From contig CAZINT010000003.1 in NCBI GenBank assembly GCA_964540825.1, forward strand, positions 83,250-147,249: DNA of 64,000 nt, in the 5' to 3' direction. A program made the position numbers and the translations under genes. The notes under the pieces were generated by a model. It was not told the DNA's origin, did no database searches, and worked only from the letters and a program-made list of their open reading frames with translations. Below, piece after piece: positions 2,766 through 64,000 of the stretch. How positions within the stretch are numbered: the stretch's first letter is position 1; every line of letters starts with the position of its first letter. This DNA comes from an uncultured Gammaproteobacteria bacterium. Lineage in GTDB: Bacteria; Patescibacteriota; Patescibacteriia; Magasanikbacterales; GWA2-37-8.

Positions 2766-2932
2766 TGTTCGTTCCTGAAGTTAATCAGGAGGTTCTTTAA
2801 TAAAGCGTCTTTGGCACCAAAAAGCCTCTATTTTAGAGAAGTTTTTTAGTGTCAAAGACCAGTACCACTTTATGAGAGGTACCCCTCTCAATTGGATCCA
2901 GGCTTTCTGTCCCGCAACCAAGGAGAACGATC

Positions 2933-3880: not shown

Positions 3881-3882
3881 TC

Positions 3883-3990: not shown

Positions 3991-4078
3991 CTACTTTTTT
4001 ACCCCTCCCCGGTAGAAACGTGATAGGAAGACATGCTACCAACTCACCAAACTAAGTTTCGGCTAAGCTTAGGTAACG

Positions 4079-21056: not shown

Positions 21057-21191
21057 GGCTATAGTATAGCATATTTTAGAACTGCCCAAATTAAAACAAA
21101 AAATTTATTGCGCTACTAGCATCCGATAATTGCACAATCATAAGGCGTAGTGTATCCTACTGCTTAAGCAATCTATTTGTAGCACATTTCT

Positions 21192-35740: not shown

Positions 35741-36367
35741 ATGCGGAACAAATTCTTTCTACTCATACTTGCTGGTGCCGGGCTTATGCTGGCTGGCGCA
35801 GGCTGTGAAAAGGCTGCTATGACCACAAACACCCCCTCAAACTCAGCTGCAATGCATGGCGAATCCATGCCAAAAACGGATGGTGCGATGATGGATCACG
35901 ATGACGCGATGACAGACCGCCAAGACACCATGATGAAAGATGATGCCAGTGCCGATGCAATGAAAAAGGACGACGCGATGATGAAAGACAAAGCCGCCGG
36001 AGACACCATGATGAAAGATGACAAAAAAGAAGGCGCCATGATGGACGACAAAAAAAGTGCCGGCACCTACGAAGACTACGCCGCCAGTAAACTGGCCTGG
36101 GCCAAAGACGGCAAAGTAATTCTCTTTTTCAAAGCCTCGTGGTGCCCAACATGTCAGGCAGTTGATAAAGATATTCTTGCCCATCTTGGAAATATCCCCG
36201 GCAAAACATACATTTTGAAAGTCGACTACGACACGTCAGCCGAACTCAAGAAAAAATACGGCGTTACTTACCAACACACCTTTGTTCAAGTAGACACAAA
36301 CGGAACGATGATCAAAAAATGGAGCGGAAGCCCAACGCTGGCCGCTTTGACTGCTGAAATTAAATAA
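35741..36367 (+). CDS. thioredoxin-like lipoprotein with a Met/Asp/Lys-rich repetitive linker
   Basis: Lipobox LAGAGC, four DAMMKD-like repeats, and a C-terminal thioredoxin fold with WCPTC. Confidence 0.7.
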   Translation: MRNKFFLLILAGAGLMLAGAGCEKAAMTTNTPSNSAAMHGESMPKTDGAMMDHDDAMTDRQDTMMKDDASADAMKKDDAMMKDKAAGDTMMKDDKKEGAMMDDKKSAGTYEDYAASKLAWAKDGKVILFFKASWCPTCQAVDKDILAHLGNIPGKTYILKVDYDTSAELKKKYGVTYQHTFVQVDTNGTMIKKWSGSPTLAALTAEIK

Positions 36368-36368
36368 C

Positions 36369-38114
36369 ATGCTACTCTTACTTCTTTCATTCACAGCTGG
36401 AGTTCTGACTGTTCTGGCGCCCTGTACCTTGCCGCTCCTGCCGATTATTATCGGCGGGTCGGCGGGCGGGACTTCCAAGCGAAGCCCGTATATTATTACT
36501 TTAGCGCTTGCCGGCGGGATTGTACTGTTTACGCTGCTTCTTAAATTCAGCACGCTGTTTATCAATATTCCCCAAAACGTCTGGAGTATTATTTCTGGCT
36601 CGATTATTATCATCCTGGGCATTACAAATGTCTTTCCTGTTCTCTGGGAAAAAATCAACATAGGGCTTGGCCTCGGCAGCCGATCGAGTCAGCTGCTTTC
36701 GGAGTCTGCCGCTCACAAAAACCGCTGGGGCGACATACTCATCGGCCTCTCGCTCGGCCCGGTTTTCTCGAGCTGTTCACCGACCTACTTCTTGATCTTG
36801 GCTACTGTCCTGCCGCGCAGCTTGGCTGTCGGCACATTGTATCTTGTCGCTTACGCGCTTGGGCTCGCACTCATTCTTCTCTTGGTTAGCATCTTGGGAC
36901 GGCGCTTTACTGCTCGTGCTGCTTGGGCTACTGATCCAAAAGGCTGGTTTAAACGCGGACTTGGGGTAGTGTTTATTATTATCGGCTTAGTTATCTTTAC
37001 GGGTACGGACAAAAAAATCCAAACGTATCTGGTACAAAACAACTATTACCCCGGCGGATCACTTGAACAAAGCCTGATTGAACGCTTTAACAATACTTCC
37101 CTCGAGCCGCAAGCAGACACAGCTTCAGCAACAACCATGCCTACGGATATGACCAAAAATTTTCCGCGCTACCGCGAAATTACTAATCCTGCCGGTTACG
37201 TCAATACACCGCCGGTCAAACTGGCCGATTTGATCGGTAAAAAAGTCATCCTCGTTGATTTCATGACCTACAGCTGCATCAACTGCATCCGAACGTTTCC
37301 CTATCTCAATGCTTGGTACGATAAATATAAAGATGATGGGCTCGAAATCGTTGGCATCCACACGCCGGAATTTGCCTTTGAACACAAACAAGCCAATGTG
37401 GAAAAAGCACTTGCTGAATTTGGCATTAAATTTCCTGTTGTTCTTGATAATGACTATGGTACCTGGAACGCCTATGGCAATAATTATTGGCCACGCAAAT
37501 ACCTGATTGATATCGATGGCTATATTGTCTACGATCACATTGGCGAAGGCAACTACGACGAAACCGAAGCAAAAATCCAAGAACTGTTGCAAGAAAAAAT
37601 GCTGCGCGACCACGCAACAACAACACTCGAAACCTCATTGGTTACTATTCCAGCTCGCACCCCAAACCGTGTAGCTAGCCCGGAAACATATTTCGGCGCT
37701 GATCGTAACCGAAACTTTGCCAACGGTGACGCAGGTAAGCTTGGAACCCAGACCATTACCGGAAATGTAACCGGCAAACTCAACGACCTCAACCTCCTTG
37801 GTACCTGGAATTTTAACCGGGAATACACCGAAGCGTCTGCCGGCGCCACCATCAGCTATCGCTATAGCGCAGCCCACGTCTTTTTTGTTGGCAGTGCTAC
37901 CAAAGCCGTACGCGTAGAAGTGCTTGAAGACGGCAAACCACTACCTCAAGATGCGGCCGGAAAAGATATCGAATACATTAATGGAAAAAGTTACGTAACC
38001 GTACAGGAAGACCGACTTTATGAACTTGTCAAAAACCTCGGCAGCGAAGAGCATACCCTGGAACTTAAAATTGAAGGTGGGGGTTTGAAAGCGTATACAT
38101 TTACGTTTGGCTAA
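36369..38114 (+). CDS. DipZ-like protein: CcdA/DsbD-type transmembrane electron-transfer domain fused to a redoxin/thioredoxin-like domain and a C-terminal beta domain
   Basis: N-terminal APCTLPLLP and a second-half Cys pair in TM helices (CcdA-like), a periplasmic Trx-like YSCINC domain, and a start 1 nt after the upstream stop (translational coupling). Confidence 0.75.
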   Translation: MLLLLLSFTAGVLTVLAPCTLPLLPIIIGGSAGGTSKRSPYIITLALAGGIVLFTLLLKFSTLFINIPQNVWSIISGSIIIILGITNVFPVLWEKINIGLGLGSRSSQLLSESAAHKNRWGDILIGLSLGPVFSSCSPTYFLILATVLPRSLAVGTLYLVAYALGLALILLLVSILGRRFTARAAWATDPKGWFKRGLGVVFIIIGLVIFTGTDKKIQTYLVQNNYYPGGSLEQSLIERFNNTSLEPQADTASATTMPTDMTKNFPRYREITNPAGYVNTPPVKLADLIGKKVILVDFMTYSCINCIRTFPYLNAWYDKYKDDGLEIVGIHTPEFAFEHKQANVEKALAEFGIKFPVVLDNDYGTWNAYGNNYWPRKYLIDIDGYIVYDHIGEGNYDETEAKIQELLQEKMLRDHATTTLETSLVTIPARTPNRVASPETYFGADRNRNFANGDAGKLGTQTITGNVTGKLNDLNLLGTWNFNREYTEASAGATISYRYSAAHVFFVGSATKAVRVEVLEDGKPLPQDAAGKDIEYINGKSYVTVQEDRLYELVKNLGSEEHTLELKIEGGGLKAYTFTFG

Positions 38115-38979: not shown

Positions 38980-40008
38980 ATGCTTGTACTCGGCATTGAA
39001 TCATCTTGCGACGACACTTCGGTTGCCCTGCTCGACTCTTCTAGCCAGGGTCATTTTATTATTGCTGAAAAAACTTTTTCACAGATTGAAATCCACCAAA
39101 AATATGGTGGCGTCGTTCCCGAAATTGCCGGCCGTATGCATGCCGAAAAAATTGCGCCAATTATTGAAGAAGTTCTCAAAGGCCAAGACAAGCCGGATAT
39201 AATTGCTGTAACTGCCGGCCCAGGCCTTATCACCGGACTCATTGTCGCGGTCGAAGCCGCTCGCACGCTCGGGTATGCCTGGAATATTCCAATTGTTGCC
39301 ACCAATCATATTAGTGGCCACGTGCATTCGGTCGAAATTCAAAACGAAAAAACTACTACTCCTGCCCCGATCGCCTTTCCCGCACTCGCGCTCATTGTGA
39401 GCGGTGGCCACACTGAACTTATTCTGATGCAAAGCCATACGGAATGTACAATTCTTGGACGCACCAAAGACGATGCTGCTGGAGAATGTTTTGATAAAGT
39501 CGCGAGCCTCTTAGGCTTTGCCTACCCGGGCGGCCCGCACATTTCTCGCGAAGCAGTGAACGGAAACCCAAACGCAATTGAGTTCCCCCGCCCGATGATT
39601 CATGACAAGAGTTATGATTTTAGTTTTTCAGGGCTGAAGACTGCGGCCCTGTACTGGCTCCGTGACAACATAGTAGGAGAAAAAGTTTCTCAAACAGATT
39701 TTTGTGCCAGTTTCGAACAAGCGATCATTGATGTACTGGTAACCAAAACAATGCGTGCTGCCACTGAGCACAAACCAAAGAGTATTATTCTCGGCGGCGG
39801 TGTTTCGGCTAACAAAAAATTACGCGAAGCGCTGACAAACGCTGTGCAGACAGATTTTCCAGAAACAACTATGCACCTTCCCCCACCCGGGTATTCCATG
39901 GATAACGGCGCTATGATTGCCGTGGCCGGGTATTACCAAGCCTTAAACAAAAACTTCACTAACTGGACAGAACTGAGTGCCAATCCGAATTGGCGAATTG
40001 ACCGCTAG
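38980..40008 (+). CDS. tsaD: tRNA N6-adenosine threonylcarbamoyltransferase TsaD (Kae1/Gcp family)
   Basis: MLVLGIESSCDDTSVAL and NHISGHV motifs; 342 aa. Confidence 0.9.
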   Translation: MLVLGIESSCDDTSVALLDSSSQGHFIIAEKTFSQIEIHQKYGGVVPEIAGRMHAEKIAPIIEEVLKGQDKPDIIAVTAGPGLITGLIVAVEAARTLGYAWNIPIVATNHISGHVHSVEIQNEKTTTPAPIAFPALALIVSGGHTELILMQSHTECTILGRTKDDAAGECFDKVASLLGFAYPGGPHISREAVNGNPNAIEFPRPMIHDKSYDFSFSGLKTAALYWLRDNIVGEKVSQTDFCASFEQAIIDVLVTKTMRAATEHKPKSIILGGGVSANKKLREALTNAVQTDFPETTMHLPPPGYSMDNGAMIAVAGYYQALNKNFTNWTELSANPNWRIDR

Positions 40009-40046
40009 CCATTTCTTGTATTTTTAGCCTAATTAAGCCCTTTATC

Positions 40047-40075
40047 TTTACAAAAGGGCTTTTTTGTGCTATTAT
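40047..40075 (+). promoter_or_regulatory. promoter-like module TTTACA-17-TATTAT with TGn (cassette J), embedded in a hairpin AAGCCCTTT/AAAGGGCTT
   Basis: ctttatctTTACAaaagggcttttttgtgcTATTAT is about 85% identical to the module at 41457. Confidence 0.45.
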
Positions 40076-40155
40076 TTTCTGTTTATCCGTGGGTCTTTCT
40101 CTCTGCCTGCGGAAAACCTGTTCATTAACAAAAGAGAGAGACAAGGATCGCGAAC

Positions 40156-41277
40156 ATGCCGAATGGAAAAACCGATCTGCTCGCTCCGGGTGAACTGGGT
40201 GCTGTCATCGTGACAGCGCTCGGTTTCAAGAACAATCGCTCCGCAGCCGATTACCTCAAGAGTACGGAATACCAGCAGCGTTTCTCGGCGGCGTCAGACG
40301 CCTACCAGCCGATCGACTTTGGCGGCGGTACCTACGTACCGCTTTCACCCAAAAACAAAGGACCACTCGATCTCACCGGCCTCATGGAAGAGACTCGTGG
40401 CGACCAGGAGCGACCCACCTGGATCCCGCTCTTCAAAGCTGGCACGCCGAAGCCTGTCGGAGCCTACAACGTCGCTCTCGTCTGTGACGGAGCGGCGCGG
40501 TTCTACAGCCGCATCGGCGCCAACACCCGTGTGAAAGGGTGGATGTACCGCATCATCTCGGGAGAGCGCGACTGCTACGCCGTGTGGGCGCGAACCGACG
40601 GACAGCCGCTCCGCGGGGCCATGGGCAACTCGGTAGATTCGAAGCGCTTCTACGCGACGCAGTCTGCCCGCGGCCTCATCTACGCCCGCGAGGCACTCTT
40701 CGACCACGTCGGCACGATGGTGGGCTACGCCACCACCACGACGCAGATCGAGGTCCGCGTGCGCGACCAGGACCCCAAACTCTGCGACAACCTGCAGGTC
40801 TTCCGCAAGACGAGCGTCAGCTACAGCTACGACCGCGAGAAGCATGATCCGCCCCGGCTGAACGACTTCGGCCAGGTTTGGCACCCCCTCATCGAGCGTG
40901 CCTACAAATGTTTCGAGCTGTACTGCATGCCCCTGCCGGAGGAGCTACAACACCGACAGCTCTTCTTCATAGAGCAGCTCGCCAAGAGCAAGGCTGACCA
41001 GCGGACATACCCCAACTTCGACAGCAAGATCGGGAAGCTCGACTGGCAGCTAGCGCTCGACAAGGTCGACGAGCCCTGGCAGCTCAGCGTCGTGATCCGG
41101 CGTTACTGCAACAGCCGCTTCGACAGCTCCCCCTGCTGCAATGACACCACCTCCAGTCGCTGGACCAAGATGCTTAGCCAGTACGTCTGCTCCACCGAGC
41201 GTCGCACCAAGCTTCAGGAGATGGTGAACAGCTACTGCTCGGTCGTCGATAGCATGTGGAACTACAGCGGCGACTAA
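40156..41277 (+). CDS. hypothetical protein (high-GC cassette J)
   Basis: 373 aa with an AAGGA SD. GC-rich third positions. The antisense ORFs 40345..40884 and 41050..41307 were rejected. Confidence 0.5.
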   Translation: MPNGKTDLLAPGELGAVIVTALGFKNNRSAADYLKSTEYQQRFSAASDAYQPIDFGGGTYVPLSPKNKGPLDLTGLMEETRGDQERPTWIPLFKAGTPKPVGAYNVALVCDGAARFYSRIGANTRVKGWMYRIISGERDCYAVWARTDGQPLRGAMGNSVDSKRFYATQSARGLIYAREALFDHVGTMVGYATTTTQIEVRVRDQDPKLCDNLQVFRKTSVSYSYDREKHDPPRLNDFGQVWHPLIERAYKCFELYCMPLPEELQHRQLFFIEQLAKSKADQRTYPNFDSKIGKLDWQLALDKVDEPWQLSVVIRRYCNSRFDSSPCCNDTTSSRWTKMLSQYVCSTERRTKLQEMVNSYCSVVDSMWNYSGD

Positions 41278-41317
41278 CCCGCGCTCCACTAACGGTTGGT
41301 CTAACAACCAATCACCA

Positions 41318-41430
41318 CCTCTTCCAAACCCTGGGGGAGCGCACTACAGTTTTTCTAAAAATATTAGAACCACTGTAGTCTCCCCCAGATTATAAAAATA
41401 ACTCCTTTTTAGGGAGTTGTTTTTTATATA
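41318..41430 (+). repeat. 3' module copy 1: 17-bp interrupted stem CTGGGGGAG-cgc-ACTACAGT...ACTGTAGT-CTCCCCCAG plus terminator AACTCCtttttaGGGAGTT-T6
   Basis: Near-identical to 42166..42275. Confidence 0.6.
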
Positions 41431-41456
41431 CAAAAGCAACACCCGCCACCTTTATC

Positions 41457-41485
41457 TTGACAAAAGGGTTCTTTTGTGCTATACT
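41457..41485 (+). promoter_or_regulatory. sigma70 promoter TTGACA-17-TATACT with TGn (cassette K)
   Basis: ctttatcTTGACAaaagggttcttttgtgcTATACT. Confidence 0.5.
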
Positions 41486-41576
41486 CACTTGTTGTTTTGA
41501 TAGCTTTTTGTCTGCATAAATAGTGCGTATTATAAAGCTTCTCAAACTGAAGCTCACAATTGATTGGAGGACAGAG

Positions 41577-42149
41577 ATGAGTCGTCTATCCCAGAAGGCA
41601 CGTCAGCACCGCGCGAACCTTCGCGACCTCAGCGATCGTATCGCCGAAGATAATGAGGTGGACCACCGAGAAGCCGACAACACCCTCGAGGACGATGACT
41701 TCGACGACGCACCCCACCCCTTCGACAGAGCAAAGGAGCTCGTCGATTGGACTGGCCGCAAGCGGTCCGGCGACATGAAGGGCATCTCCTTCTGCGGATA
41801 CTCCACGCGAGTAATCGCCTTCGAGCTGAACCACCAGGATCGGCTCACCGAGATCGCCGAGGAGAACTACCCGGCCTCCGCCGACGAGGACCCGGATGTG
41901 CACCGCTACTACGCAGAGCATCAGCGCCAGATCGACCGAGAGCTCGACTGGCTCTGGGCCAAGCGGGGAGAGTACCGGGCGCAGGGCGCACACGAAGTCT
42001 GGGTGTACCTCAACGGCAAGAACATCGAGGACCACCCGTACCGGTCGTGGGTCCCTCGCATGCCCGGTCTCCCGGCCCAGGAAGACTCCGACTTCGACCG
42101 CCACTACCACCCGTGGGGCGGCAACCTCTACTCCTTCAGCTACGTCTAG
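41577..42149 (+). CDS. acidic hypothetical protein (high-GC cassette K)
   Basis: 190 aa from ATG 41577, with a GGAGG SD 7 nt upstream. The ORF-track start at 41523 is further upstream. The antisense ORF 41586..42281 was rejected. Confidence 0.5.
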   Translation: MSRLSQKARQHRANLRDLSDRIAEDNEVDHREADNTLEDDDFDDAPHPFDRAKELVDWTGRKRSGDMKGISFCGYSTRVIAFELNHQDRLTEIAEENYPASADEDPDVHRYYAEHQRQIDRELDWLWAKRGEYRAQGAHEVWVYLNGKNIEDHPYRSWVPRMPGLPAQEDSDFDRHYHPWGGNLYSFSYV

Positions 42150-52989: not shown

Positions 52990-53502
52990 ATGCTTGATAT
53001 TTTACCCGTTGATCAACGTGAAGGCAGGGGTAGCTGCGGCGCAGCGTGCCTCAAAACCATACTCGCCTATCACGGTGTTACCACTACCGAAGCCAAGCTC
53101 ACCAAACTGCTTGGCACCACTGCCGCCAATGGTACAAGGGGTGAAGCATTGGTCAGCGTAGCAAAAAAATTTGGTCTGCAGAGTTTCATCAAAGACAATT
53201 CCGAACTTAGTGATCTTAAAAAATATTTGGACAAAAAAATTCCCATTATTGTTGCCTGGTTTAGCGGGACAGATACACACTACTCAGTAGTAGTTGGAAT
53301 AGATGCAGAAAATATTTACTTGCAAGACCCAGAACTAGGACACTTGCGCGCCATGCACCACGTCTGGTTTAAACGAGTTTGGTTCGATTTTTGGGGGCCG
53401 TTCATGAAAAAAACAAGCGACCTCATTTTACGACGGATGATCGTAATTATACCGCCGGCAAATTTCGGCGATACCAGATCCACACAATCCAAAAAACAAT
53501 AA
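52990..53502 (+). CDS. standalone peptidase C39-like domain protein
   Basis: Q9...GSCGAACLKTIL (Gln/Cys), HYSVVVGID (His), LQDP (Asp). No signal peptide and no SD. Confidence 0.6.
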   Translation: MLDILPVDQREGRGSCGAACLKTILAYHGVTTTEAKLTKLLGTTAANGTRGEALVSVAKKFGLQSFIKDNSELSDLKKYLDKKIPIIVAWFSGTDTHYSVVVGIDAENIYLQDPELGHLRAMHHVWFKRVWFDFWGPFMKKTSDLILRRMIVIIPPANFGDTRSTQSKKQ

Positions 53503-56118: not shown

Positions 56119-58641
56119 ATGAATGTTTTAGAGCGTTTTTCTACTCATGTGCGTCAGGTTCTGGCAAAAAGTATTCAGCTCGCTGCCGAACTCAAACATA
56201 AAGAGGTTGAACCGATCCATCTGTTTTTTTCGTTAGCCGGTCAAAAGGGCTCGGTTGGGGCAGAAATTATTAATCGCTTTAAACTCGACCCCAAAAGTCT
56301 TGAGTATTATTTGTTCAATTTACCCGTTGTCAAAGCCCGACCCGTCCGGCGCGCCCCTGCTGCCGCACTTGTTATGACGCCACTCTCGGCCGAGGCTCAG
56401 CGCGCAGTTGAAAAAGCCATGCTCATTGCCGAGCAAAACCGCCACAACTACGTCGGGACCGAACATTTGTTAGCCGGGCTCCTGGCGCTTCACAACTCCC
56501 TGCTTGAGGATATTTTTAAAATGAACGCTATTACGCTCGCTGACCTCAACAAGCAGCTTGACACCGTGCTCGCTAACGCCACCCAGTTCCCCCGCATCAA
56601 CGACGTAAGCGAGGTCGTGGAACAAATTCAAGATACTTTAGGTGAAAACCAGCATCCTCCGCATATGGGCGAACATCATAATCACACTGCTCCAAAAAAT
56701 AACAAAAAAACCGAAGCGGCTTTGGATTTTTTTGCGACCGAACTAACCAGTAGCGAGACAGAAAGCACACTTGACCCGGTTGTCGGCCGCGCTGGTGAAA
56801 TCGAACGCCTTATTCAGATTTTGTGCCGACGCAGCAAAAATAATCCAGTGCTTCTGGGTGAACCTGGTGTTGGTAAAACGGCTATTGTCGAAGGACTGGC
56901 TAAACGAATTGTTGCCGGTGACGTTCCCGATCTCCTCCTTAACAAAAAAATCTACGCCCTCGACCTAGGACTCCTGATTGCTGGCACGATTTATCGCGGC
57001 GAGTTTGAGGGGCGGCTCCGCCAAGTGATTGAAGAAGTCACCGAAAACCCTGATATCATTTTATTTATTGACGAAATTCACAATATTGTCGGTGCCGGAT
57101 CAAACCAAGGCACCATGGATGCCGGCAATATTCTCAAGCCCGCCTTGTCGCGCGGACAAATTCATTGTATTGGCGCTACAACGCCGCAAGAATTTAAAAA
57201 ACATATTGAAAACGACCCCGCGCTCGAACGCCGTTTTCAATCTATCTATGTCGAGGAACCAAGTCTGGCAGACACAGTAACGATTCTCAAAGGCATTAGA
57301 GAAAACTACGAACATTTTCACCATATTGCAATTACCGATGAAGCAATTGAAATGGCCGTACGCTTGGCTGACCGGTATATCAGTAACAAATTTTTGCCTG
57401 ACAAAGCGATTGATCTTATCGACGAAGCAGCGGCAGCTAAACGCCTAGCGCAAAAGGTGGCGCCGTGGCAAAACAAACTTGCCAAATTAAAACAAAAACT
57501 TGAAAAAACGATTCAGGCCAAAGAAACCGCTGCCCAAAACGATCATTTTGAAGAAGCAGTAAAACTGAAAGAGGAGGAAGAAAAAATTCGCACAGCAGTT
57601 AAACAAGCCGAAAAAATAGCCGGCAGCAAAAAACCCAAAATTTTAGCCAGCATTACTGACCAAGATATTTTGGCGCAAATCGCCCGCATCACCCACACCG
57701 CACCAACTGAACTTATTCTTGAGGACACCGGAAACTTACAGCTGATTGAGCAAAAATTGCGCTCCGCGATTGTTGGCCAAAGCGAGGCCATTACTACGGT
57801 GGCTGCTCAGGTACGCCAGGCACTTATGGGACTCTCGCACCCTGACCGCCCACTTGCGTCGTTCTTGTTTGTCGGCGAATCGGGTGTCGGTAAAACCGAA
57901 CTGGCGAAGACGCTCGCGAAAACCCTCTACCCCGGACGTGACGCCCTTATTCGCCTGAACATGAGCGAATTTAATGAAAGTTTCGGAGTATCAAAATTAC
58001 TCGGCTCCCCGGCCGGATATGTTGGCTACAAAGAAAGCAATCAGTTTACTGATAAAATAAAACAAAACCCGCACTGCGTGCTTTTATTTGATGAAATTGA
58101 CAAAGCGCATAAAGACGTTACCAAGCTTCTCTTACAAATGCTTGAAGATGGCGAGATAACCGACTCGACGGGCAAGAAAATTTCTTTAAAACATGCTATA
58201 CTAATCATGACTACCACGCTTGGAGCCGAAGATGTTAAAAAAGGACTTCTCGGGTTTGGCGGCAACACTACTTCGGCAACAACTCAGCAAGCGCAGCTGG
58301 TTGAAAAGCTCAAAGACTATTTCTCGGCTGAGATTATCAATCGAATCGACAGTATTTGCTTCTTTAATCCGCTGACACAGCTTGATTTAGTGACTATTGC
58401 CGAGCTCGAACTGAACCGCCTGAATGATCGGCTTAAAATACACCACACCAAACTCAGCTCACCGACTCCGGTACTGGAGTGGCTTATCGAGCATCAAAGC
58501 AAGGCGAGTCAAAATGCTCGGGAAGTCCGCCGCACTGTTAGGACGCAGGTCGAAAAATTAATCGCTGAAATCCTCTTAACCAAAAAAATTAACGCCCAGT
58601 ACGAACTGACTGTTACTGATGAGCAGCTTGAACTTCGCTAA
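56119..58641 (+). CDS. clpC: ATP-dependent Clp protease ATP-binding subunit, ClpC-like
   Basis: Clp_N repeats, two AAA+ modules ([15 protein letters not shown]; [15 protein letters not shown]), and a UVR-like linker ([16 protein letters not shown]). Confidence 0.85.
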
Positions 58642-58697: not shown

Positions 58698-59630
58698 ATG
58701 CCCCCGGCTCGGCCAGTCTCAAACAATTCAGCAGTCCGAAAATTTGGACAGGCCCTCAGCCTGGCAGCAGCTCTTGGCGGCAGTGCGCCAGCAGCCCAGC
58801 CACAGCGCACACTCAGCGAGACAGAACAAATGAGTGCGGCGAACGAACTTGGAAATTCTCTGGCCGTAGCGCGAGGCAGCGGCCTTGGGGCAGCGCCAAC
58901 CTCGGACGAAAATTACCAACCCCCTGCCGGCACTAATTTTGAAGCAACCGAAACTAGCAAACCAGGTGAAAAACAATCTTTAACGAAAAGATTATTTGGC
59001 GTCACGAGTGCAAAAGCAAACTATAGCCGCTCTAGCCGGAACGATTATCAAACTCCTGATCGCTCTAAATCCACCCCTACTACAGAGGGCACACCTGAAT
59101 CAAACACCTATGACCAGCTCATGGCCGAACAAAATCGCAGCCGCGCGCTTATAAAAGCTGAACAACAGTCCGAAAAATCTGACGATACACTGCGCAATCA
59201 AATTACCGGCGGTAATCTTTTACATATTATTAAACGGGTCTTGCCCAATTTTGACAGCTTGCTTGGCGGCATCGAAAAAGCGCCTGCCGAAAAACGCCTC
59301 CCTTTGCTGGAAAATCTTAAAAGCGCTCTTCGCGCGGCTGAAACAGGCGCTGGTTTTATTGACGGATGCTCAACGTGGCTAGAAATTTTTTCCCTCAGTA
59401 TTCCTACGATTGTCGTTCCCTTTTTGCTACCCTTCCTATTCTTACCCTGGGTGATTCTCTATATGTCTTTTGGAAGAATTTTAGGCGGAACACTGTCGGT
59501 CGGTGTTCATAAAATCACTCAAATTGTTGACGCGATGATTGCGGAAACCAAAAAACAAATTGCCAAAAAACAAAAGAAAAGAAATCTATTACTGCGCCTC
59601 ATGCAAATGCAACGCCGCCAATCCGCTTAA
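58698..59630 (+). CDS. hypothetical protein with a low-complexity N-terminus and a C-terminal TM segment
   Basis: The start is uncertain; several in-frame ATGs. Confidence 0.35.
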   Translation: MPPARPVSNNSAVRKFGQALSLAAALGGSAPAAQPQRTLSETEQMSAANELGNSLAVARGSGLGAAPTSDENYQPPAGTNFEATETSKPGEKQSLTKRLFGVTSAKANYSRSSRNDYQTPDRSKSTPTTEGTPESNTYDQLMAEQNRSRALIKAEQQSEKSDDTLRNQITGGNLLHIIKRVLPNFDSLLGGIEKAPAEKRLPLLENLKSALRAAETGAGFIDGCSTWLEIFSLSIPTIVVPFLLPFLFLPWVILYMSFGRILGGTLSVGVHKITQIVDAMIAETKKQIAKKQKKRNLLLRLMQMQRRQSA

Positions 59631-59657: not shown

Positions 59658-60890
59658 ATGTCGCCTCTTCTTAAGAGAATTCTCCTTATCGCACTCCTCG
59701 TTGTAGTCGCGCTCGGAATTGGTTTTGGCCTCTATTACTTGTTTAACCGAACCGGTTCGCTGGCTGGTGTTAGCCCAACACCAGCGCCAGGGGGCGCGCA
59801 GCTGCCCGGATCAGGCGAACGACCAACAACGACTCCCGGGGGAATAACTCCCGGCGCAGGCACAGGAACGACCCTTCCTGCTTCGGGCGTCACACCGGCC
59901 ACGCCTTCACCCAGCTTCTACCAGCCAAAGCCGGTTGAAAAAGTAAGCAATGATTTTGCCATCTTTCCTTCGCTGAGTACAGCCGGCGACGTGCGCTATC
60001 ACAACGCGAGCGATGGAAGATTTTATCAAATTCAGCCTGACGGCCAAATAAAAACGCTTTCTGATCAACAGTTTTATAATGTTCAAAACGTTACCTGGGC
60101 CAAGACAGCCGACAAGGCCGTGCTGGAATACCCCGATGGCTCAAAAATTATTTATAATTTTGACACCAAAAAACAAACATCACTCCCCAAGCACTGGGAA
60201 GACTTTTCCTTCTCTCCTGACGGCAATCAACTGGCCGCCAAAAGCATGGGCCTTTCACCTGAAAATCGCTGGCTCGTGACCACCAAGGATGACGGCAGCG
60301 GCACAACACTTATTGAGCCACTTGGCGATAACGGCGATGCTGTTCAGGTCGCCTGGTCACCAAGCCGCCAGACAGTCGCCTTTGCTCAAACCGGCCAAGC
60401 GCTCGGCCTCGATCGCCGCGAAGTCCTGTTGGTTGGTTTACAGGGTGAAAATTTTAAATCAACGGTTGTGGAAGGGCTCGACTTTTTGCCAGCCTGGTCA
60501 CCAACCGGCAAAAAACTACTCTACAGCGTTGACAGTGCGCGCAGTGATTTCAAGCCTGAACTCTGGATCGTAAATGCCTACGGCGACGAAATTGGCACCA
60601 ACCGCCAATCACTCAGTATCAACACCTGGGCAGACAAATGTTCCTTTGGAGACGATGATACCCTGTTTTGTGCCGTGCCTCGCAACTTACCGCAGGGGGC
60701 CGGCATGTCACGCGATGTCGCCAAAGATTCTTATGACGATCTGTACAAGATAGACCTGAAAACCGGCGCCAAGGTGCCAGTACCACTTGGCGACGATTAC
60801 CACATCAACAATATTTCTTTTGATAAATCCACTAATAAAGTATACTTTACTGACCAAGATCAAACGGGAATTTTTGAGGCAAAATTATAA
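59658..60890 (+). CDS. membrane-anchored protein with a P/G/T-rich linker and a TolB-like (PD40) beta-propeller
   Basis: N-terminal TM, a linker, then a WD/PD40-like repeat region. Confidence 0.55.
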   Translation: MSPLLKRILLIALLVVVALGIGFGLYYLFNRTGSLAGVSPTPAPGGAQLPGSGERPTTTPGGITPGAGTGTTLPASGVTPATPSPSFYQPKPVEKVSNDFAIFPSLSTAGDVRYHNASDGRFYQIQPDGQIKTLSDQQFYNVQNVTWAKTADKAVLEYPDGSKIIYNFDTKKQTSLPKHWEDFSFSPDGNQLAAKSMGLSPENRWLVTTKDDGSGTTLIEPLGDNGDAVQVAWSPSRQTVAFAQTGQALGLDRREVLLVGLQGENFKSTVVEGLDFLPAWSPTGKKLLYSVDSARSDFKPELWIVNAYGDEIGTNRQSLSINTWADKCSFGDDDTLFCAVPRNLPQGAGMSRDVAKDSYDDLYKIDLKTGAKVPVPLGDDYHINNISFDKSTNKVYFTDQDQTGIFEAKL

Positions 60891-60898
60891 TCTACCGT

Positions 60899-61555
60899 AT
60901 GTCGCATACTAAAAAATTCTTTCTTGTTCTTCTGGCCCTTATTTTGGGCACCCTGCTCCTCCTTGGCAAACAAATTAGCCGCGCGTTTACTATTACCACA
61001 GCACCGACCAACCAACCGCTGATTAGCCCGCTTACCACCGATATTCCAAGCGACAGCACGGATCCGATTTTTGGTAACCCGGGAGCCGCGCTTAGCATCG
61101 TTGAGTTTACTGACATTGGCTGCGCAGAGTGCCAGCGAGTTCACCATATTCTTACGACTTTCATCGCCGCTCACCCCAAAGATGCCCGCCTCATCTGGAA
61201 AGATGCACCGAATCGAAGTATTTTTTTGAAAGAAAATATTCCAGCGCATGTGGCTGCTTTTTGTGCCGAACAGCAAAATAAATTTTGGGAATATACTGAC
61301 GCAGTCATGGCTGACAAAAAATATACTTCTACCAAGAATCTTATAGAGCAAGCCAGCAAGCTTGCATTGGACATTCCCGTCTTTGAAGCCTGTCTCAAAG
61401 ACCCGGCTTCGACAGCACGAATAACCAGCGCTCGGATTCTGGCCCAGCAGCTCGGCATTACAACTGCACCAGTATTGTTCGTTAACAACCGGCGCATCAC
61501 CCTCACCAAAGACATCGATCTTACAGAGCTGCTTGAAGCCTTTATTGCCCTATAA
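60899..61555 (+). CDS. DsbA-like thiol:disulfide oxidoreductase, membrane-anchored
   Basis: N-terminal TM and a thioredoxin fold with CAEC. Confidence 0.6.
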   Translation: MSHTKKFFLVLLALILGTLLLLGKQISRAFTITTAPTNQPLISPLTTDIPSDSTDPIFGNPGAALSIVEFTDIGCAECQRVHHILTTFIAAHPKDARLIWKDAPNRSIFLKENIPAHVAAFCAEQQNKFWEYTDAVMADKKYTSTKNLIEQASKLALDIPVFEACLKDPASTARITSARILAQQLGITTAPVLFVNNRRITLTKDIDLTELLEAFIAL

Positions 61556-61564
61556 TTTTTACGT

Positions 61565-62722
61565 ATGTACTCGCCTCGCCTTCCACTTGGTCAAAAAATA
61601 TTTCTGCTTTTTACATTCAGCATTCTTTGTTTGGCGGCCACCCCGGCGCACGCCATAACAACAAGCACGGGCGAAACAGTCGACAATGGATATAGCAACA
61701 TCGCCAAACAGCTTAAACCGCCTCAACCTGCTATCCATATTCCTGGTCTTGTTTTTAGCGACGTTTCTCCAACCCTCGATGAAGATGGTAATGTTTCGGT
61801 GCCATTCCTCGGCGAATACATCGGCGCGGTGTACAAGTTTGCCATGATTGCAGCCAGTGTCGTTGCCGTTATCATGATTATTGTTCAAGGTTTTCAGGTA
61901 GTGATGTCGGGCGGCGGCGAAGAACAAGTTGCCGCTTACAAAAATATTGGACGCATTGTTATCGGACTCTGTCTGGTCTGGGGATCATATTTTATTTTAT
62001 ATACCGTCAACCCCGAGCTTGTTAATTTTAAGACCTTAAAAATTAAGTATATTCCACCTCAAGTGATTAAGGTAGACGCAGCTGACGAACCGCCAACTGA
62101 TGGGCCCGCAACACCGACGACAGGCACCGGGAATGTTCCCTATTTTGCTCAATGGGAAGGGCCGTGGGCGAAACGAAAACCGGGCGACGAACTTAATCCG
62201 CCATGGCCGCTCGCAGACAGCCAAGCCGGACGAACAGACTGCAGCACAATTCAGCAGCGCGGCTGCGGCCCTACCAGCCTTGCCATGGTTTTAGCTTACT
62301 ATGGGCAAAGTGTTACTCCGCTTGATACCGCAAAATGGGGTCTTGGCTGCACCGGCGCCTGGCAGCCAAGCCAAACACTCGGAAAAAATAGTGCCAATTT
62401 TGAAGCAAAATGGCCCGGGCTTACTGCTAAAACAGTTAAAGCTGAACAAATTTTACCTTTACTTACGAACGGTAAACCGCTGGTGTATAATTGTGCACCC
62501 TGCCAAGGCCTGAATAAGGATGGAAAACCGGCCAAGGAATATTCCGGACATTATGTGGTACTTACTAAACTGCAGCAGCGCGATACCCAAGGCTTAGCAA
62601 ATGATCAAATCATTGTTGAAGTTAACGACCCCGGAGCAAACCCAACTAAACGCATTATGACCATGACCATGCAGCAAGTACTTGATCATTACCGGACAGC
62701 CGTGTACGTTGATAAAAAATAA
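61565..62722 (+). CDS. fusion protein: signal peptide plus two-helix VirB2/TrbC-like pilin segment, a P/T-rich linker and a C-terminal C39-like peptidase domain
   Basis: Signal peptide ...ATPAHA, the helices YKFAMIAASVVAVIMIIVQGFQVV and IGRIVIGLCLVWGSYFILYTV, and C39-like Gln/Cys (QQRGCGPTSLAMVLAYYG), His (SGHYVVLT) and Asp (VNDPG). Confidence 0.5.
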   Translation: MYSPRLPLGQKIFLLFTFSILCLAATPAHAITTSTGETVDNGYSNIAKQLKPPQPAIHIPGLVFSDVSPTLDEDGNVSVPFLGEYIGAVYKFAMIAASVVAVIMIIVQGFQVVMSGGGEEQVAAYKNIGRIVIGLCLVWGSYFILYTVNPELVNFKTLKIKYIPPQVIKVDAADEPPTDGPATPTTGTGNVPYFAQWEGPWAKRKPGDELNPPWPLADSQAGRTDCSTIQQRGCGPTSLAMVLAYYGQSVTPLDTAKWGLGCTGAWQPSQTLGKNSANFEAKWPGLTAKTVKAEQILPLLTNGKPLVYNCAPCQGLNKDGKPAKEYSGHYVVLTKLQQRDTQGLANDQIIVEVNDPGANPTKRIMTMTMQQVLDHYRTAVYVDKK

Positions 62723-62723
62723 C

Positions 62724-64000
62724 ATGCCCTCTAAATACGAAACAATTTTTACCTGCAGCAACTGCGGCGCTCAATTCCAAAAATGGATTGGGCGCTGTTT
62801 AGAGTGTGGAAAATGGGGAACGGTTGAAAAAGCCCAAATATCAAATGCCAAATTACAAAACGATGAAGTGATTTTACCCACGAAGACCGTGAAACTGAGC
62901 GAGGTAGGAGGTAAAAATTTTAAACGAATTGCTACAGGCATCTCGGAACTTGATCGCGTGCTCGGCGGCGGGATCGTACCGGGGAGTCTTATTCTTCTTG
63001 GCGGCGAACCGGGTATTGGTAAATCAACACTTTCGCTCCAACTCGCCGCAGTCCTTCCCAACACGTTCTATTTTTCAGCCGAAGAATCTGCCGAGCAAAT
63101 TAAAATGCACGCTGATCGCCTCGGTATTACAGCGCCGACACTTCAACTCGCCAACGAACCGGAAGTCGAAAAAATAATTGCCACGCTTACCCCAACCAAA
63201 AAAGAAGCGCCCATGCCACTCCCCGGACTCGTGATTATCGACTCCATTCAAACGCTCTACTCAAACGATGTTGAAGGCGAACCGGGAAATATCAATCAAA
63301 TCCGCGCTTGCACCGTCAAACTCATGGAGCTGGCCAAAACGAGCGGCATTCCCATTGTCATTATTGGCCACGTCACTAAAGAAGGAACTGTTGCGGGACC
63401 GAAGACACTGGAGCATTTGGTTGATACTGTTTTATACCTCGAGGGCGATCAACACCATCTGTACCGAATACTTCGCACGGTCAAAAATCGTTTTGGAGCG
63501 ACCGACGAAGTGGGTATTTTTCAAATGGAAGAAAAGGGGCTTATGGAAGTTAAAAATGCTTCAGCCTATTTTATGTCTGAACGCGGAGAAGATTTGCCGG
63601 GAACTATTCTCACCTGTCTGATCGAAGGCACGCGCCCTATCATCGTTGAAATTCAAGCACTCGTAAACAAAACTGCGTTTGGCTACCCAACGCGTAAATC
63701 GAGCGGTTTTGATTTAAACCGCCTCTATGTTTTGATCGCTGTACTCCAAAAACGAGCAGGACTGCACCTGGAACAATATGACGTGCACATCAATGTGGTT
63801 GGCGGACTCACCGCTGACGAACCGGCGGCTGACCTCGCTGTCGCTATGGCCATTGCCAGCGCCTACAAAGACAAACCGCTCGGGCACGACCTCGTCGCGT
63901 TTGGCGAAGTAGGCCTTGGCGGCGAAGTGCGCTCAATCCCCCAGCTAGAAAAGCGCATTCGCGAAGCTGAGCAGCTCGGACTCAAACGGGCCATAACCAA
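62724..64000 (+). CDS. radA: DNA repair protein RadA/Sms; the C-terminus runs off the window end
   Basis: Translated by hand from ATG 62724: MPSKYETIFTCSNCGAQFQKWIGRCLECGKWG zinc ribbon and Walker A GGEPGIGKSTL. The gene is edge-truncated and therefore not in the ORF track. Confidence 0.85.
   Translation, partial: MPSKYETIFTCSNCGAQFQKWIGRCLECGKWGTVEKAQISNAKLQNDEVILPTKTVKLSEVGGKNFKRIATGISELDRVLGGGIVPGSLILLGGEPGIGKSTLSLQLAAVLPNTFYFSAEESAEQIKMHADRLGITAPTLQLANEPEVEKIIATLTPTKKEAPMPLPGLVIIDSIQTLYSNDVEGEPGNINQIRACTVKLMELAKTSGIPIVIIGHVTKEGTVAGPKTLEHLVDTVLYLEGDQHHLYRILRTVKNRFGATDEVGIFQMEEKGLMEVKNASAYFMSERGEDLPGTILTCLIEGTRPIIVEIQALVNKTAFGYPTRKSSGFDLNRLYVLIAVLQKRAGLHLEQYDVHINVVGGLTADEPAADLAVAMAIASAYKDKPLGHDLVAFGEVGLGGEVRSIPQLEKRIREAEQLGLKRAIT

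What the first reader, a model, noticed from the sequence alone, without database searches (positions are those of the whole stretch)
59658..62722. VirB2/TrbC-like two-helix pilin segment fused to a C39-like papain-fold peptidase, next to DsbA-like and TolB-like envelope proteins
The protein at 61565..62722 starts with a signal peptide and two long hydrophobic helices separated by a short polar loop, which is the topology of T4SS pilins. A P/T-rich linker leads to a C-terminal domain with the Gln-Cys-His-Asp arrangement of C39-like peptidases (QQRGCGPTSL..., SGHYVVLT, VNDPG). Upstream and same-strand are a membrane-anchored DsbA-like oxidoreductase (CAEC) and a TM-anchored TolB-like beta-propeller. 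A second, standalone C39-like domain lies at 52990..53502. A pilin-anchored cysteine peptidase could act on the cell surface or on a partner cell. I know of no characterised precedent for this fusion.
Basis: partly seen in the sequence, partly recalled or inferred. Interest (0 to 1): 0.55.

Follow-up and report, generated by a model that had tools for sequence, protein, structure and literature searches.

The report
Pilin-anchored T4SS-type cell-wall peptidase
An uncultured ultra-small bacterium (Patescibacteria) encodes a membrane protein that joins a secretion-system pilin-like anchor to an intact cysteine peptidase that most likely cuts cell wall; the design is widespread but I found no paper describing it, and it may help explain how these bacteria breach cell walls.

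Summary
ORF 61565..62722 (385 aa) has a signal peptide, a two-helix hairpin, a P/T-rich linker and a Peptidase_C39_2 domain. Cys234, His329, Asp355 and Gln196 are conserved in 140-148 of 148 relatives.

The hairpin belongs to Pfam PF18895 (T4SS_pilin, the VirB2-like pilins of Patescibacteria). This protein scores below the Pfam threshold, but its family does not.

The fusion is common: 148 of the 200 proteins I fetched have both modules.

At the same chromosomal slot (clpC - membrane protein - PD40 propeller - DsbA - [pilin-X] - radA), relatives carry NlpC/P60, SLT or an unknown domain instead of C39. Other pilin-module proteins carry Amidase_2, VanY or GDSL domains.

Three independent links point to type IV secretion, although no T4SS gene lies in the window:
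- Pilin-module genes follow virB4 in 40 of 46 metagenomic loci.
- Homologues of the neighbouring propeller abut them in 16 of the 17 virB4 loci that carry one.
- C39_2 homologues sit next to VirB4 in 15 of 24 loci, mostly Firmicutes.

Best reading: a VirB1-like cell-wall peptidase carried on a VirB2-like anchor. It is a new variant of known kinds, and the enzymology is untested.

The parts
61565..62722 (+). Whole gene: pilin-module / C39_2 peptidase fusion, 385 aa (identical to P0001)
   Evidence: ORF; exact match in the public collection; Pfam C39_2 50.5 bits and T4SS_pilin 19.9 bits
61565..61654 (+). Signal peptide, aa 1-30, ending AHA|IT
   Evidence: Hydropathy and sequence; helix 8-23 in the model. 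The cleavage site is inferred from the AXA motif.
61706..62059 (+). PF18895-type (VirB2-like) hairpin module, aa 48-165. Elements in order: IPGL strand, helix 81-114, SGGG turn, helix 119-148, NPEL motif, KIKY strand.
   Evidence: Family-level Pfam hits; profile search; AF2 of the module at pLDDT 86.6; conserved P53, Y90, G109, G117, N149, P150
62051..62131 (+). P/T-rich linker, aa 163-189
   Evidence: Sequence; lower-confidence stretch of the model (pLDDT 65 for aa 151-170)
62132..62719 (+). Peptidase_C39_2 domain, aa 190-385. Conserved codons: Q196 (62150-62152), C234 (62264-62266), H329 (62549-62551), D355 (62627-62629). Conserved Cys: 226, 262, 310, 313.
62054..62741 (+). Replaceable cassette. 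Nucleotide colinearity with close relative L051 stops at 62053 (aa 163) and resumes at 62742 (radA). L051 carries an unrelated C-terminal domain here.
60899..61555 (+). TM-anchored DsbA-like thiol-disulfide oxidoreductase (CAEC), 9 nt upstream of the fusion gene
   Evidence: Pfam Thioredoxin_4 53.3 bits and DSBA 35.8 bits; TM 3-28 and Cys75/78; conserved position in 15 relatives
59658..60890 (+). TM-anchored PD40-repeat beta-propeller. Its homologues abut pilin-module genes downstream of virB4 in other Patescibacteria.
58698..59630 (+). 310-aa protein with a C-terminal hydrophobic segment (aa 226-262); no family match. First gene of the four-gene insert between clpC and radA.
   Evidence: A gene of similar size occupies this position in relatives, but sequence similarity is detectable in only a few.
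56119..58641 (+). ClpC-type AAA+ ATPase, upstream flank of the cassette; a promoter-like site lies at 56066-56094
   Evidence: Pfam for orthologues
62724..64000 (+). radA/sms (runs off the window), starting one base after the fusion gene's stop codon

Best explanation
The gene encodes an extracytoplasmic, membrane-tethered cysteine peptidase of a Magasanikbacteria-like Patescibacterium. It most likely works as the cell-wall-cutting accessory (a VirB1 analogue) of that organism's type IV secretion apparatus.

Proposed steps:
1. The signal peptide is removed.
2. The VirB2-like hairpin (PF18895) sits in the membrane with both ends outside and the SGGG turn inside.
3. The P/T-rich linker holds the C39_2 domain outside the membrane.
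4. The neighbouring membrane-anchored DsbA oxidises the domain's conserved cysteines.
5. The Cys234/His329/Asp355 triad, with Gln196, cleaves a peptide or amide bond of peptidoglycan. This opens the wall locally, either in the cell's own wall or in that of the attached host.
6. The hairpin directs the enzyme to the T4SS pilin pool.

Shown: the architecture, the intact and conserved catalytic residues, the family membership of both modules, the synteny, the domain swapping, and the genomic association of each module (and of the propeller neighbour) with virB4 in other genomes.

Inferred: the topology, disulfide formation by DsbA, peptidoglycan as the substrate, and dependence on a T4SS in this organism.
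For: Architecture and active site.

Pilin module:
- 11 of 20 family members and 19 of 28 paralogues match PF18895 (best E 4e-9 and 1.8e-25).
- The module profile finds standalone PF18895 proteins at E 1e-33.
- In 80 metagenomic virB4 loci, a pilin-module ORF starts within 3 kb downstream on the same strand in 40 of the 46 with enough flank.
- 59 of 79 such ORFs are 250 aa or longer, so they carry extra C-terminal domains.
- 55 of 79 have the same NPxL-type motif.

Cell-wall substrate:
- The same hairpin is fused to SLT (5), Amidase_2 (4), VanY/M15 (1), NlpC/P60 (1) and GDSL (1) in other proteins.
- A 3D domain is weakly matched in another.
- The orthologous slot holds pilin-NlpC/P60 in L050, and pilin-SLT beside pilin-C39 in L049.
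- Peptidase_C39_2 is catalogued as a catalytic domain of Gram-positive phage lysins (PMC8223927).
- A phage 'morphogenesis protein 1 hydrolase' is a fold match.

T4SS link of the C39 domain:
- A VirB4-like ATPase lies within 4 kb on the same strand in 15 of 24 loci chosen only by C39 similarity.
- In Paenibacillus L036 the two genes abut.
- L039 has VirB4, then an SLT+C39_2 protein, then a homologue of the window's propeller two genes further on.
- L029 (Saccharibacteria) has VirB4 followed directly by a pilin-C39_2 fusion.
- Annotated plasmids place 'C39 family peptidase' beside 'PrgI family protein' and 'VirD4-like conjugal transfer protein'.

T4SS link of the cassette: propeller homologues lie 1-2.8 kb downstream of virB4 in 17 loci. 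They lie within 0-97 nt of a pilin-module ORF in 16 of these. The propeller profile hits nothing else in about 830 kb of control loci except L039.

Extracytoplasmic location and DsbA: conserved Cys226, 262, 310 and 313. DsbA sits beside pilin-module genes in 15 syntenic loci and in L007 and L008.

Literature: Patescibacteria T4SS resemble monoderm conjugation systems, carry PF18895 pilins and mostly lack a recognisable VirB1 (PMC12102498). In Southlakia the T4SS cluster, with its pilin array and lysozyme/cysteine-proteinase and M15B genes, is essential (PMC10633639).
Against: - No T4SS gene lies in the 64 kb window, nor within about 10 kb beyond recG in the 74%-identical relative. In all 16 related species the cassette sits between clpC and radA.
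- None of the 80 metagenomic virB4 loci contains a C39_2 domain, even with a broadened profile. Single-sequence searches for the other hydrolase domains also found none there. L029 is therefore the only case seen of a pilin-C39 fusion next to virB4.
- The four non-Patescibacterial C39 homologues most similar to this one (L025-L027, L032) have no VirB4 nearby.
- I found no report that any C39_2 domain has been shown to cleave peptidoglycan. The best solved-structure matches are peptide-processing C39 domains.
- The protein's own PF18895 score is below the cut-off, and the hairpin fold search was unspecific.
Confidence: 0.55

Rival explanations
1. Housekeeping autolysin. The hairpin is only a membrane anchor of pilin ancestry. 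The enzyme, with the propeller and DsbA, remodels the cell's own wall during growth or division and works independently of any T4SS.
For: - The position between clpC and radA is invariant, among housekeeping genes, in 16 species.
- The genes are tightly packed in one direction with no plus-strand terminator-like site between 56725 and 63703.
- No T4SS gene is nearby.
- Some proteins carry 2-4 tandem hairpins in one chain, which look like anchors rather than polymerising pilins.
Against: - Propeller homologues and pilin-module genes are neighbours of virB4 elsewhere.
- C39_2 homologues abut VirB4 in Firmicutes and in L029, L039 and L048.
- Recent replacement of the catalytic domain between close relatives is unusual for a core autolysin.
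Confidence: 0.22
2. Pilus-borne enzyme. The hairpin polymerises with other PF18895 pilins into a T4SS pilus, as a minor or tip subunit. The peptidase is thereby displayed away from the cell and cuts the wall of the host bacterium. The swappable C-terminal domain adapts the organism to different hosts.
For: - PF18895 homology and virB4-adjacent arrays of pilin-module proteins with large ectodomains.
- A precise cassette swap at aa 163 between genomes about 77-83% identical in the flanks.
- No immunity-like gene follows the enzyme.
- Pilin arrays are essential for epibiotic growth in Southlakia (PMC10633639).
- By analogy with F and T pilins, both pilin termini face outward (established knowledge), so a C-terminal fusion is topologically allowed.
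Against: - A 22 kDa domain on every subunit would not fit a VirB2-type helical lattice (inference).
- No pilus has been shown for any Patescibacterial T4SS in the papers read.
- The fold search of the hairpin did not recover solved conjugative pilins.
- No T4SS genes are nearby.
Confidence: 0.15
3. Processing protease. Like classical C39 domains, it cleaves a leader or tail from secreted peptides or proteins, for example the variable C-terminal tails of PF18895 pilins, rather than peptidoglycan.
For: - The best structural and sequence matches among solved proteins are double-glycine leader peptidases (PCAT1, LahT).
- 13 of 20 family members also match Peptidase_C39.
- A second, standalone C39 lies in the window.
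- PF18895 proteins share a conserved NPxL motif followed by variable tails.
Against: - The domain is interchangeable with SLT, NlpC/P60, Amidase_2 and VanY domains, which are not proteases of proteins.
- No ABC transporter is nearby; I did not search for double-glycine precursor genes.
- L039 fuses C39_2 to SLT, as the VirB1-like hydrolases of Gram-positive T4SS fuse a peptidase to a glycosidase.
Confidence: 0.08

Closest known systems
PF18895 T4SS_pilin: VirB2-like pilins of Patescibacterial type IV secretion systems (Wang et al. 2023, PMC10633639; Quinonero-Coronel et al. 2025, PMC12102498)
   Same: Signal peptide plus a two-helix hairpin with a GG turn. The sequence family is shared at the profile level. 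Relatives with the same NPxL motif lie directly downstream of virB4.
   Different: The described pilins are about 120-190 aa and sit in arrays next to virB4. This protein is 385 aa, carries an enzyme, lies far from any virB4, and scores below the Pfam cut-off on its own.
VirB1-like cell-wall hydrolases of Gram-positive conjugative T4SS (PrgK of pCF10, CwlT of ICEBs1, TraG of pIP501, TcpG of pCW3; established knowledge, partly cited in PMC12102498)
   Same: Membrane-anchored, extracytoplasmic, and built on a papain-fold cysteine peptidase module. The L039 homologue has the SLT + peptidase two-domain plan next to VirB4.
   Different: Those use CHAP or NlpC/P60 rather than C39_2, have a plain TM anchor rather than a pilin hairpin, and are encoded inside the T4SS operon. 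Hydrolysis is demonstrated for them and not for this protein.
'C39 family peptidase' genes beside VirB4/PrgI and VirD4-like genes on Firmicute plasmids and integrated elements (e.g. Vescimonas fastidiosa pMM35_02, Paenibacillus L036)
   Same: Homologous C39_2 domain (26-31% identity) with the same AGCGPTSLAM and GHF/Y-V-L motifs.
   Different: They have a single N-terminal hydrophobic segment, and no PF18895 hairpin is detectable in those loci. They are annotated only by family name and appear uncharacterised.
C39 peptidase domains of bacteriocin exporters (PCAT1, ComA, LahT)
   Same: Papain-like fold and a Cys-His-Asp triad in the same order. These are the best solved-structure matches.
   Different: Those are cytoplasmic N-terminal domains of ABC transporters that cut double-glycine leaders. 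This domain is predicted to be extracytoplasmic, has conserved cysteines, has no transporter, and scores below the PF03412 cut-off (15.8 versus 22 bits).
Polymorphic toxin / effector systems (conserved N-terminal delivery module, variable C-terminal enzyme)
   Same: There is a sharp recombination boundary after a conserved N-terminal module. The C-terminal repertoire (peptidases, amidases, glycosidases, a GDSL esterase) resembles envelope-targeting effectors.
   Different: No adjacent immunity gene is present; radA follows after one base. The locus is fixed in the chromosome among housekeeping genes.

Membership tests
Peptidase_C39_2 (PF13529, papain-like clan) | Profile match above the curated cut-off | tested here: met
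   50.5 bits versus 24; aa 190-347 cover profile positions 2-141 of 143. 20 of 20 family members match.
Peptidase_C39_2 (PF13529, papain-like clan) | Catalytic Cys, His and Asp (plus an oxyanion Gln) present and conserved | tested here: met
   C234 148/148, H329 145/148, D355 140/148, Q196 143/148. They align with 3ERV and 6MPZ.
Peptidase_C39_2 (PF13529, papain-like clan) | Papain-like C39 fold | tested here: met
   AF2 domain pLDDT >90. Foldseek against the PDB: PCAT1 C39 domain, probability 1.0, E 2.6e-4.
Peptidase_C39_2 (PF13529, papain-like clan) | Hydrolytic activity | not testable with these tools
   Needs enzyme assays.
Bacteriocin-processing C39 (PF03412) of ABC exporters | Profile match above the cut-off and fusion to, or adjacency with, an ABC transporter | tested here: not met
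   15.8 bits versus 22. No ABC exporter is in the neighbourhood.
PF18895 T4SS_pilin / VirB2-like pilin | Profile match above the curated cut-off | tested here: inconclusive
   This protein scores 19.9 bits versus 26.6, E 7.9e-4. Its family: 11 of 20 match at E<=0.01, best 4e-9. Paralogue P0022 scores 39.5 bits. The module profile retrieves PF18895 proteins at E 1e-33.
PF18895 T4SS_pilin / VirB2-like pilin | Signal peptide followed by two hydrophobic helices joined by a short turn | tested here: met
PF18895 T4SS_pilin / VirB2-like pilin | Small protein consisting essentially of the hairpin | tested here: not met
   385 aa with a 196-aa enzyme domain. However, 59 of 79 virB4-adjacent pilin-module ORFs are also 250 aa or longer.
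PF18895 T4SS_pilin / VirB2-like pilin | Encoded with virB4 and other T4SS genes | tested here: not met
   None in the window or the nearby flank of a relative. The feature is met for related modules: 40 of 46 virB4 loci, and L029.
PF18895 T4SS_pilin / VirB2-like pilin | Structural similarity to solved conjugative pilins | tested here: inconclusive
PF18895 T4SS_pilin / VirB2-like pilin | Polymerises into a pilus | not testable with these tools
   Needs microscopy or biochemistry.
VirB1-like T4SS cell-wall hydrolase | Peptidoglycan-degrading domain with a membrane anchor | tested here: inconclusive
   The anchor is present. C39_2 is exchangeable with SLT, NlpC/P60 and Amidase_2 on the same hairpin and is fused to SLT in L039. 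Activity on peptidoglycan is unproven.
VirB1-like T4SS cell-wall hydrolase | Encoded in a T4SS gene cluster | tested here: not met
   Not met for this gene. Met for C39_2 homologues in 15 of 24 loci and on annotated plasmids.
TolB (neighbour 59658..60890) | Equivalog-level match to TolB | tested here: not met
   TIGR02800 scores 23.1 bits versus 343. Only the PD40 repeat is above its cut-off (34.7 versus 20.9).
DsbA-like oxidoreductase (neighbour 60899..61555) | Thioredoxin fold profile above cut-off, with a CxxC motif and an export or anchor signal | tested here: met
   Thioredoxin_4 53.3 bits and DSBA 35.8 bits. CAEC at 75-78 and TM 3-28.
Polymorphic toxin system | Variable C-terminal domain with a cognate immunity gene immediately downstream | tested here: not met
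   The variable domain is present, but radA follows after one base and no small variable gene is present.

The most novel reading that the evidence does not exclude
PF18895 hairpins may be a general T4SS-recognised carrier module in Patescibacteria. The module would take interchangeable ectodomains (peptidases, amidases, transglycosylases, cysteine-rich adhesin-like domains) out of the membrane and onto a pilus-like structure. On this reading the protein is a pilus-borne, swappable 'warhead' that an epibiotic cell uses to cut the wall of its host. The transmembrane PD40 propeller and DsbA would be dedicated assembly partners.
Probability: 0.15. Interest if true: 0.85.

Novelty: new variant of a known kind. 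Interest (0 to 1): 0.6.

Why it matters
The T4SS of Patescibacteria is essential for epibiotic growth in the one species tested. What it transports, and how it crosses cell walls, is unknown (PMC10633639, PMC12857230). The published survey found VirB2-like pilins widely but few VirB1-like hydrolases, and left open which enzymes fill that role (PMC12102498).

These results give concrete candidates for the missing wall-breaching function. Pilin modules are physically fused to wall hydrolases, and a propeller partner sits beside pilin genes at virB4 loci. The results also offer a possible handle on host range, because the catalytic domain is swapped between close relatives.

The results further suggest that the 'C39 family peptidase' genes next to VirB4 on Firmicute plasmids and integrated elements are the cell-wall hydrolases of those conjugation systems. 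That role is not reflected in their annotation.

All of this is testable with a purified domain and muropeptide analysis.

Tried and rejected
- Foldseek of the hairpin model against the PDB gave only generic helical hairpins and cannot decide pilin homology.
- I tried to walk along the chromosome to find virB4. The 215 kb NCBI contig of this organism could not be read; only 8.6 kb and 3.1 kb Logan contigs were available. The closest relative showed LytR, Der, Pth, DprA and TopA beyond recG, and no VirB4.
- The paper's statement that ABY1 T4SS loci often include recG and radA could therefore be neither confirmed nor excluded for this genome.
- A nine-sequence VirB4 alignment was too divergent for the metagenome scan. 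A three-sequence one worked.
- C39_2, SLT, Amidase_2, NlpC/P60, VanY and 3D domains were not found in the 80 virB4 loci with local profiles or phmmer.
- The C-terminal domain of P0014, which occupies the C39 slot in L051, has no Pfam, NCBIfam or PDB sequence match.
- PHROGs gave nothing for the C39_2 domain.
- The 343-aa PD40 protein of L039 is not significantly similar to the window propeller. A different L039 ORF (2725-4017) is.
- ORFs between virB4 and the propeller in other loci are secreted ~350-aa proteins unlike the window's 310-aa protein. The 310-aa protein has no detectable relatives at virB4 loci.
- The context of the diderm C39 homologues L026 and L027 was uninformative: a methyltransferase and an NtrC-type regulator.
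- I considered a polymorphic-toxin reading and set it aside for lack of an immunity gene.

Full report
**1. What is there**

They are separated by 27, 8 and 9 nt. radA starts one base after the last stop codon. A promoter-like site lies just upstream of clpC (56066-56094), and no plus-strand terminator-like site lies between 56725 and 63703. Both scans are at background frequency, so this is only consistent with co-transcription.

The target protein (61565..62722, 385 aa) has the following parts:
- a hydrophobic leader ending AHA|IT;
- two long hydrophobic helices joined by SGGG;
- a P/T-rich linker (aa 163-189);
- a C-terminal domain.

AlphaFold2 on a 20-sequence alignment gives mean pLDDT 79. 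It models helices 81-114 and 119-148, two short strands (76-79 and 158-161) on either side of them, and a C-terminal domain at pLDDT >90.

**2. The peptidase domain**

- Pfam Peptidase_C39_2 matches at 50.5 bits, above the 24-bit cut-off, over nearly the whole profile.
- A family profile aligns GCGPTSLAM, GHYVVLT and VNDP with the Cys, His and Asp motifs of 3ERV (a putative C39-like peptidase) and of the LahT double-glycine protease 6MPZ.
- Foldseek places the C39 domain of PCAT1 first, with probability 1.0.
- Over 148 fusion relatives the counts are Cys234 148, His329 145, Asp355 140 and Gln196 143.
- Cys262 (125/148), Cys226 (81), and the pair Cys310/Cys313 (71/72) are also conserved. This fits an exported, disulfide-bonded domain and the adjacent membrane-anchored DsbA (CAEC). 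That fit is an inference.

**3. The N-terminal module**

On its own the protein scores 19.9 bits against PF18895 T4SS_pilin, below the 26.6-bit cut-off (E 7.9e-4), with only a trace of TrbC.

At family level the assignment is firm:
- 11 of 20 orthologues match PF18895, best E 4e-9.
- 19 of 28 paralogous proteins match, best E 1.8e-25.
- A profile of the 114-aa module retrieves short, standalone PF18895-annotated proteins at E down to 1.3e-33.
- These proteins share non-membrane motifs as well: IPGL, GEYI, SGG and LYTINPxLV.
- The profile hits no other ORF of the window.
- Weak matches to TrbC, DUF6112 and the Mycoplasma 'Mbov_0395 pilin-like conjugal transfer protein' recur.

A fold search with a confident model of the module alone (pLDDT 86.6) returned only generic helical hairpins, so it decides nothing.

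With a cleaved or uncleaved leader followed by two spans, the C-terminal domain must lie outside the membrane. This is the topology established for F and T pilins (own knowledge).

**4. How common, and in what organism**

A full scan of 1.84 billion representative proteins with the family profile gave 1,091 hits at E<=1e-30. Of the 200 proteins I fetched, 148 have the pilin module followed by the C39 module, always in that order.

Record titles of relatives read Candidatus Magasanikiibacteriota, Magasanikbacteria, Uhrbacteria or 'Patescibacteria group'. The 'uncultured Gammaproteobacteria' titles of the closest MAGs are probably placeholders. From my own knowledge, GTDB places these groups in class ABY1.

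**5. Synteny and domain swapping**

In all 16 species-level loci with the fusion, the order is the same: PGM(-) | clpC - small membrane protein - PD40 propeller - DsbA - [pilin-X] - radA | recG(-). This holds even when the C39 domain is only about 30% identical.

The clpC-radA adjacency recalls the Bacillus ctsR-clpC-radA operon (own knowledge), so the four genes look like an insertion.

The occupant of the slot varies:
- L050 has pilin-NlpC/P60.
- L049 has pilin-SLT in the DsbA position, next to pilin-C39.
- L019, L022 and L024 have two pilin-X genes in tandem.
- L051 comes from a genome whose flanks are 77-83% identical at the nucleotide level. Colinearity stops at window position 62053 (aa 163, the end of the module) and resumes at 62742 (radA). 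In between lies an unrelated 240-aa domain with no family match.

More widely, the same hairpin carries SLT (5), Amidase_2 (4), VanY/Peptidase_M15_4 (1), NlpC/P60 (1), GDSL (1) and a weak 3D domain. All of these are enzymes that act on the cell wall or its modifications.

Peptidase_C39_2 itself is listed among the catalytic domains of lysins of Gram-positive phages (PMC8223927; PMC13284279). A phage 'morphogenesis protein 1 hydrolase' is a fold match. Peptidoglycan is therefore the most likely substrate. No assay supports this yet.

**6. Links to type IV secretion**

The window contains no T4SS gene. Every ORF of 500 aa or more, and most of those of 150 aa or more, are housekeeping or unrelated. 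The closest relative has none within about 10 kb beyond recG. Three independent lines nevertheless tie the parts to T4SS.

(a) *The C39_2 domain.*
- Among 24 loci outside this lineage that were retrieved only by similarity to the C39 domain, 15 have a VirB4-like ATPase within 4 kb on the same strand, often abutting.
- In Paenibacillus L036 a TM-C39_2 protein (81 bits) abuts a PF19044/AAA_10 ATPase.
- On Vescimonas plasmid pMM35_02 a 'C39 family peptidase' precedes a 942-aa 'PrgI family protein' and lies a few genes upstream of a 'VirD4-like conjugal transfer protein'.
- In L039 a VirB4 fragment is followed by an SLT+C39_2 protein. This is the glycosidase-plus-cysteine-peptidase plan of PrgK, CwlT and TraG (own knowledge for those proteins).

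(b) *The fusion itself.* In L029, a Saccharibacterium, a VirB4-like gene (PF19044, 97.8 bits) is followed directly by a 548-aa pilin-C39_2 fusion. A 312-aa ORF and another pilin-X gene come next.

(c) *The hairpin and the propeller.* I retrieved 80 metagenomic loci with a Patescibacterial VirB4 query.
- 40 of the 46 with at least 3 kb downstream have a pilin-module ORF starting within 3 kb on the same strand.
- 59 of 79 such ORFs are 250 aa or longer, up to 1,551 aa, with cysteine-rich ectodomains.
- 55 of 79 have the NPxL-type motif.
- A profile of the window's propeller family hits 17 of these loci, best E 1.3e-33, at 1-2.8 kb downstream of virB4. In 16 of them the hit lies within 0-97 nt of a pilin-module ORF.
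- In about 830 kb of other loci, the propeller profile hits only the cassette orthologues and one ORF of L039, the VirB4 - SLT+C39_2 locus.

**7. What speaks against the T4SS link**

- None of the 80 virB4 loci has a C39_2 domain.
- None has the other hydrolase domains at the sensitivity I had.
- The four most similar non-Patescibacterial C39 homologues (L025-L027, L032, from diderms) have no VirB4 nearby, and the two contexts I examined (L026, L027) were uninformative.
- No PF18895-like hairpin occurs in the Firmicute loci.
- DsbA and the 310-aa protein have no detectable counterparts at virB4 loci.
- Proteins with two to four tandem hairpins exist. These are hard to fit to a simple polymerising pilin.

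**8. Literature**

- PF18895 pilins, often in arrays near virB4, are described for Patescibacteria. The same survey found few VirB1 homologues, left open which hydrolases replace them, and noted that ABY1 T4SS loci often include recG and radA (PMC12102498).
- In Southlakia epibionticum the T4SS cluster is essential. It includes six PF18895 pilins, a lysozyme/cysteine-proteinase protein and an M15B-like protein (PMC10633639; PMC12857230).
- I found no paper that mentions a pilin-hydrolase fusion, or C39 peptidases as T4SS components. The searchable library does not cover most subscription journals.

**9. Conclusion**

The best-supported reading is a VirB1-like cell-wall peptidase mounted on a VirB2-like hairpin. 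It belongs to a T4SS-derived envelope cassette (propeller, DsbA, pilin-X) that in this lineage has settled between clpC and radA. My confidence is about 0.55.

The rivals are:
- a T4SS-independent autolysin with a pilin-derived anchor (0.22);
- a pilus-displayed, host-directed enzyme (0.15);
- a protein-processing C39 protease (0.08).

The protein is a new variant of known kinds rather than a new kind. Both modules belong to known families, but the literature available to me has not recorded three things: their fusion, its modular exchange with wall hydrolases, and the propeller partnership.

Noticed in passing
window 52990..53502 (+): Standalone 170-aa Peptidase_C39 domain (PF03412 65 bits; also matches C39_2 and C70). 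It has no signal peptide or TM segment and no ABC transporter nearby. It follows LemA (51107..), an M48/HtpX peptidase (51677..) and a 115-aa ORF. The LemA-M48-...-C39 order recurs in L004.
   Followed up: partly
window 2001..4000, ORF 2933..3880 (+): A GC-rich island (0.61 versus about 0.47 elsewhere) encodes a 315-aa cysteine-rich protein with a lipoprotein-like leader and no Pfam match. It may be foreign DNA. A second GC-rich stretch at 40001..42000 (0.57) covers a 373-aa ORF (40156..41277) with no match.
   Followed up: no
L036 7692-10358; L055 (Vescimonas plasmid pMM35_02) 8128-12363; L056 (C. botulinum p12/29): In Firmicutes, 'C39 family peptidase' genes sit directly beside VirB4/PrgI-type ATPases of conjugative T4SS clusters. 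They probably serve as the cell-wall hydrolase of those systems, which their annotation does not say.
   Followed up: partly
L039 3-4017: Compact locus: a VirB4 fragment, an SLT+C39_2 two-domain protein (405 aa), a PD40 protein (343 aa), then a 430-aa homologue of the window's propeller (E 6e-11).
   Followed up: partly
L082 11773-19109, and similar loci L075, L079, L084, L088: Directly downstream of virB4 lie arrays of three or four pilin-module proteins of 400-1,170 aa (L086 has a single one of 1,551 aa). Each has an N-terminal NPxL-type hairpin and a large cysteine-rich ectodomain of unknown fold.
   Followed up: partly
P0154, P0167, P0169, P0181, P0050 (proteins): Single polypeptides contain two to four tandem PF18895 hairpins.
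   Followed up: no
L123, L117, L118, L125, L114, L124, L126 (ORF between virB4 and the propeller): A conserved secreted protein of about 350 aa with the motif DSYTPPFYKGK lies between virB4 and the propeller. It has no counterpart in the window cassette.
   Followed up: no
window 35741..38114 (+): A thioredoxin-domain protein is followed by a DsbD_TM-Redoxin-Thioredoxin_10 fusion (581 aa). This is a second extracytoplasmic redox module in the same window.
   Followed up: no
window 18462..21089 (-): An 875-aa protein carries a purple-acid-phosphatase N-terminal-type domain and a PG_binding_1 domain. 29502..30551 encodes an SH3_3-domain protein. Both are likely wall-associated.
   Followed up: no
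L007 6723-13092: DsbA is followed by several pilin-module ORFs: a 134-aa pilin next to a 99-aa C39_2 fragment (probably a frameshifted fusion, in an assembly with many split genes) and a pilin-Amidase_2 fusion.
   Followed up: partly
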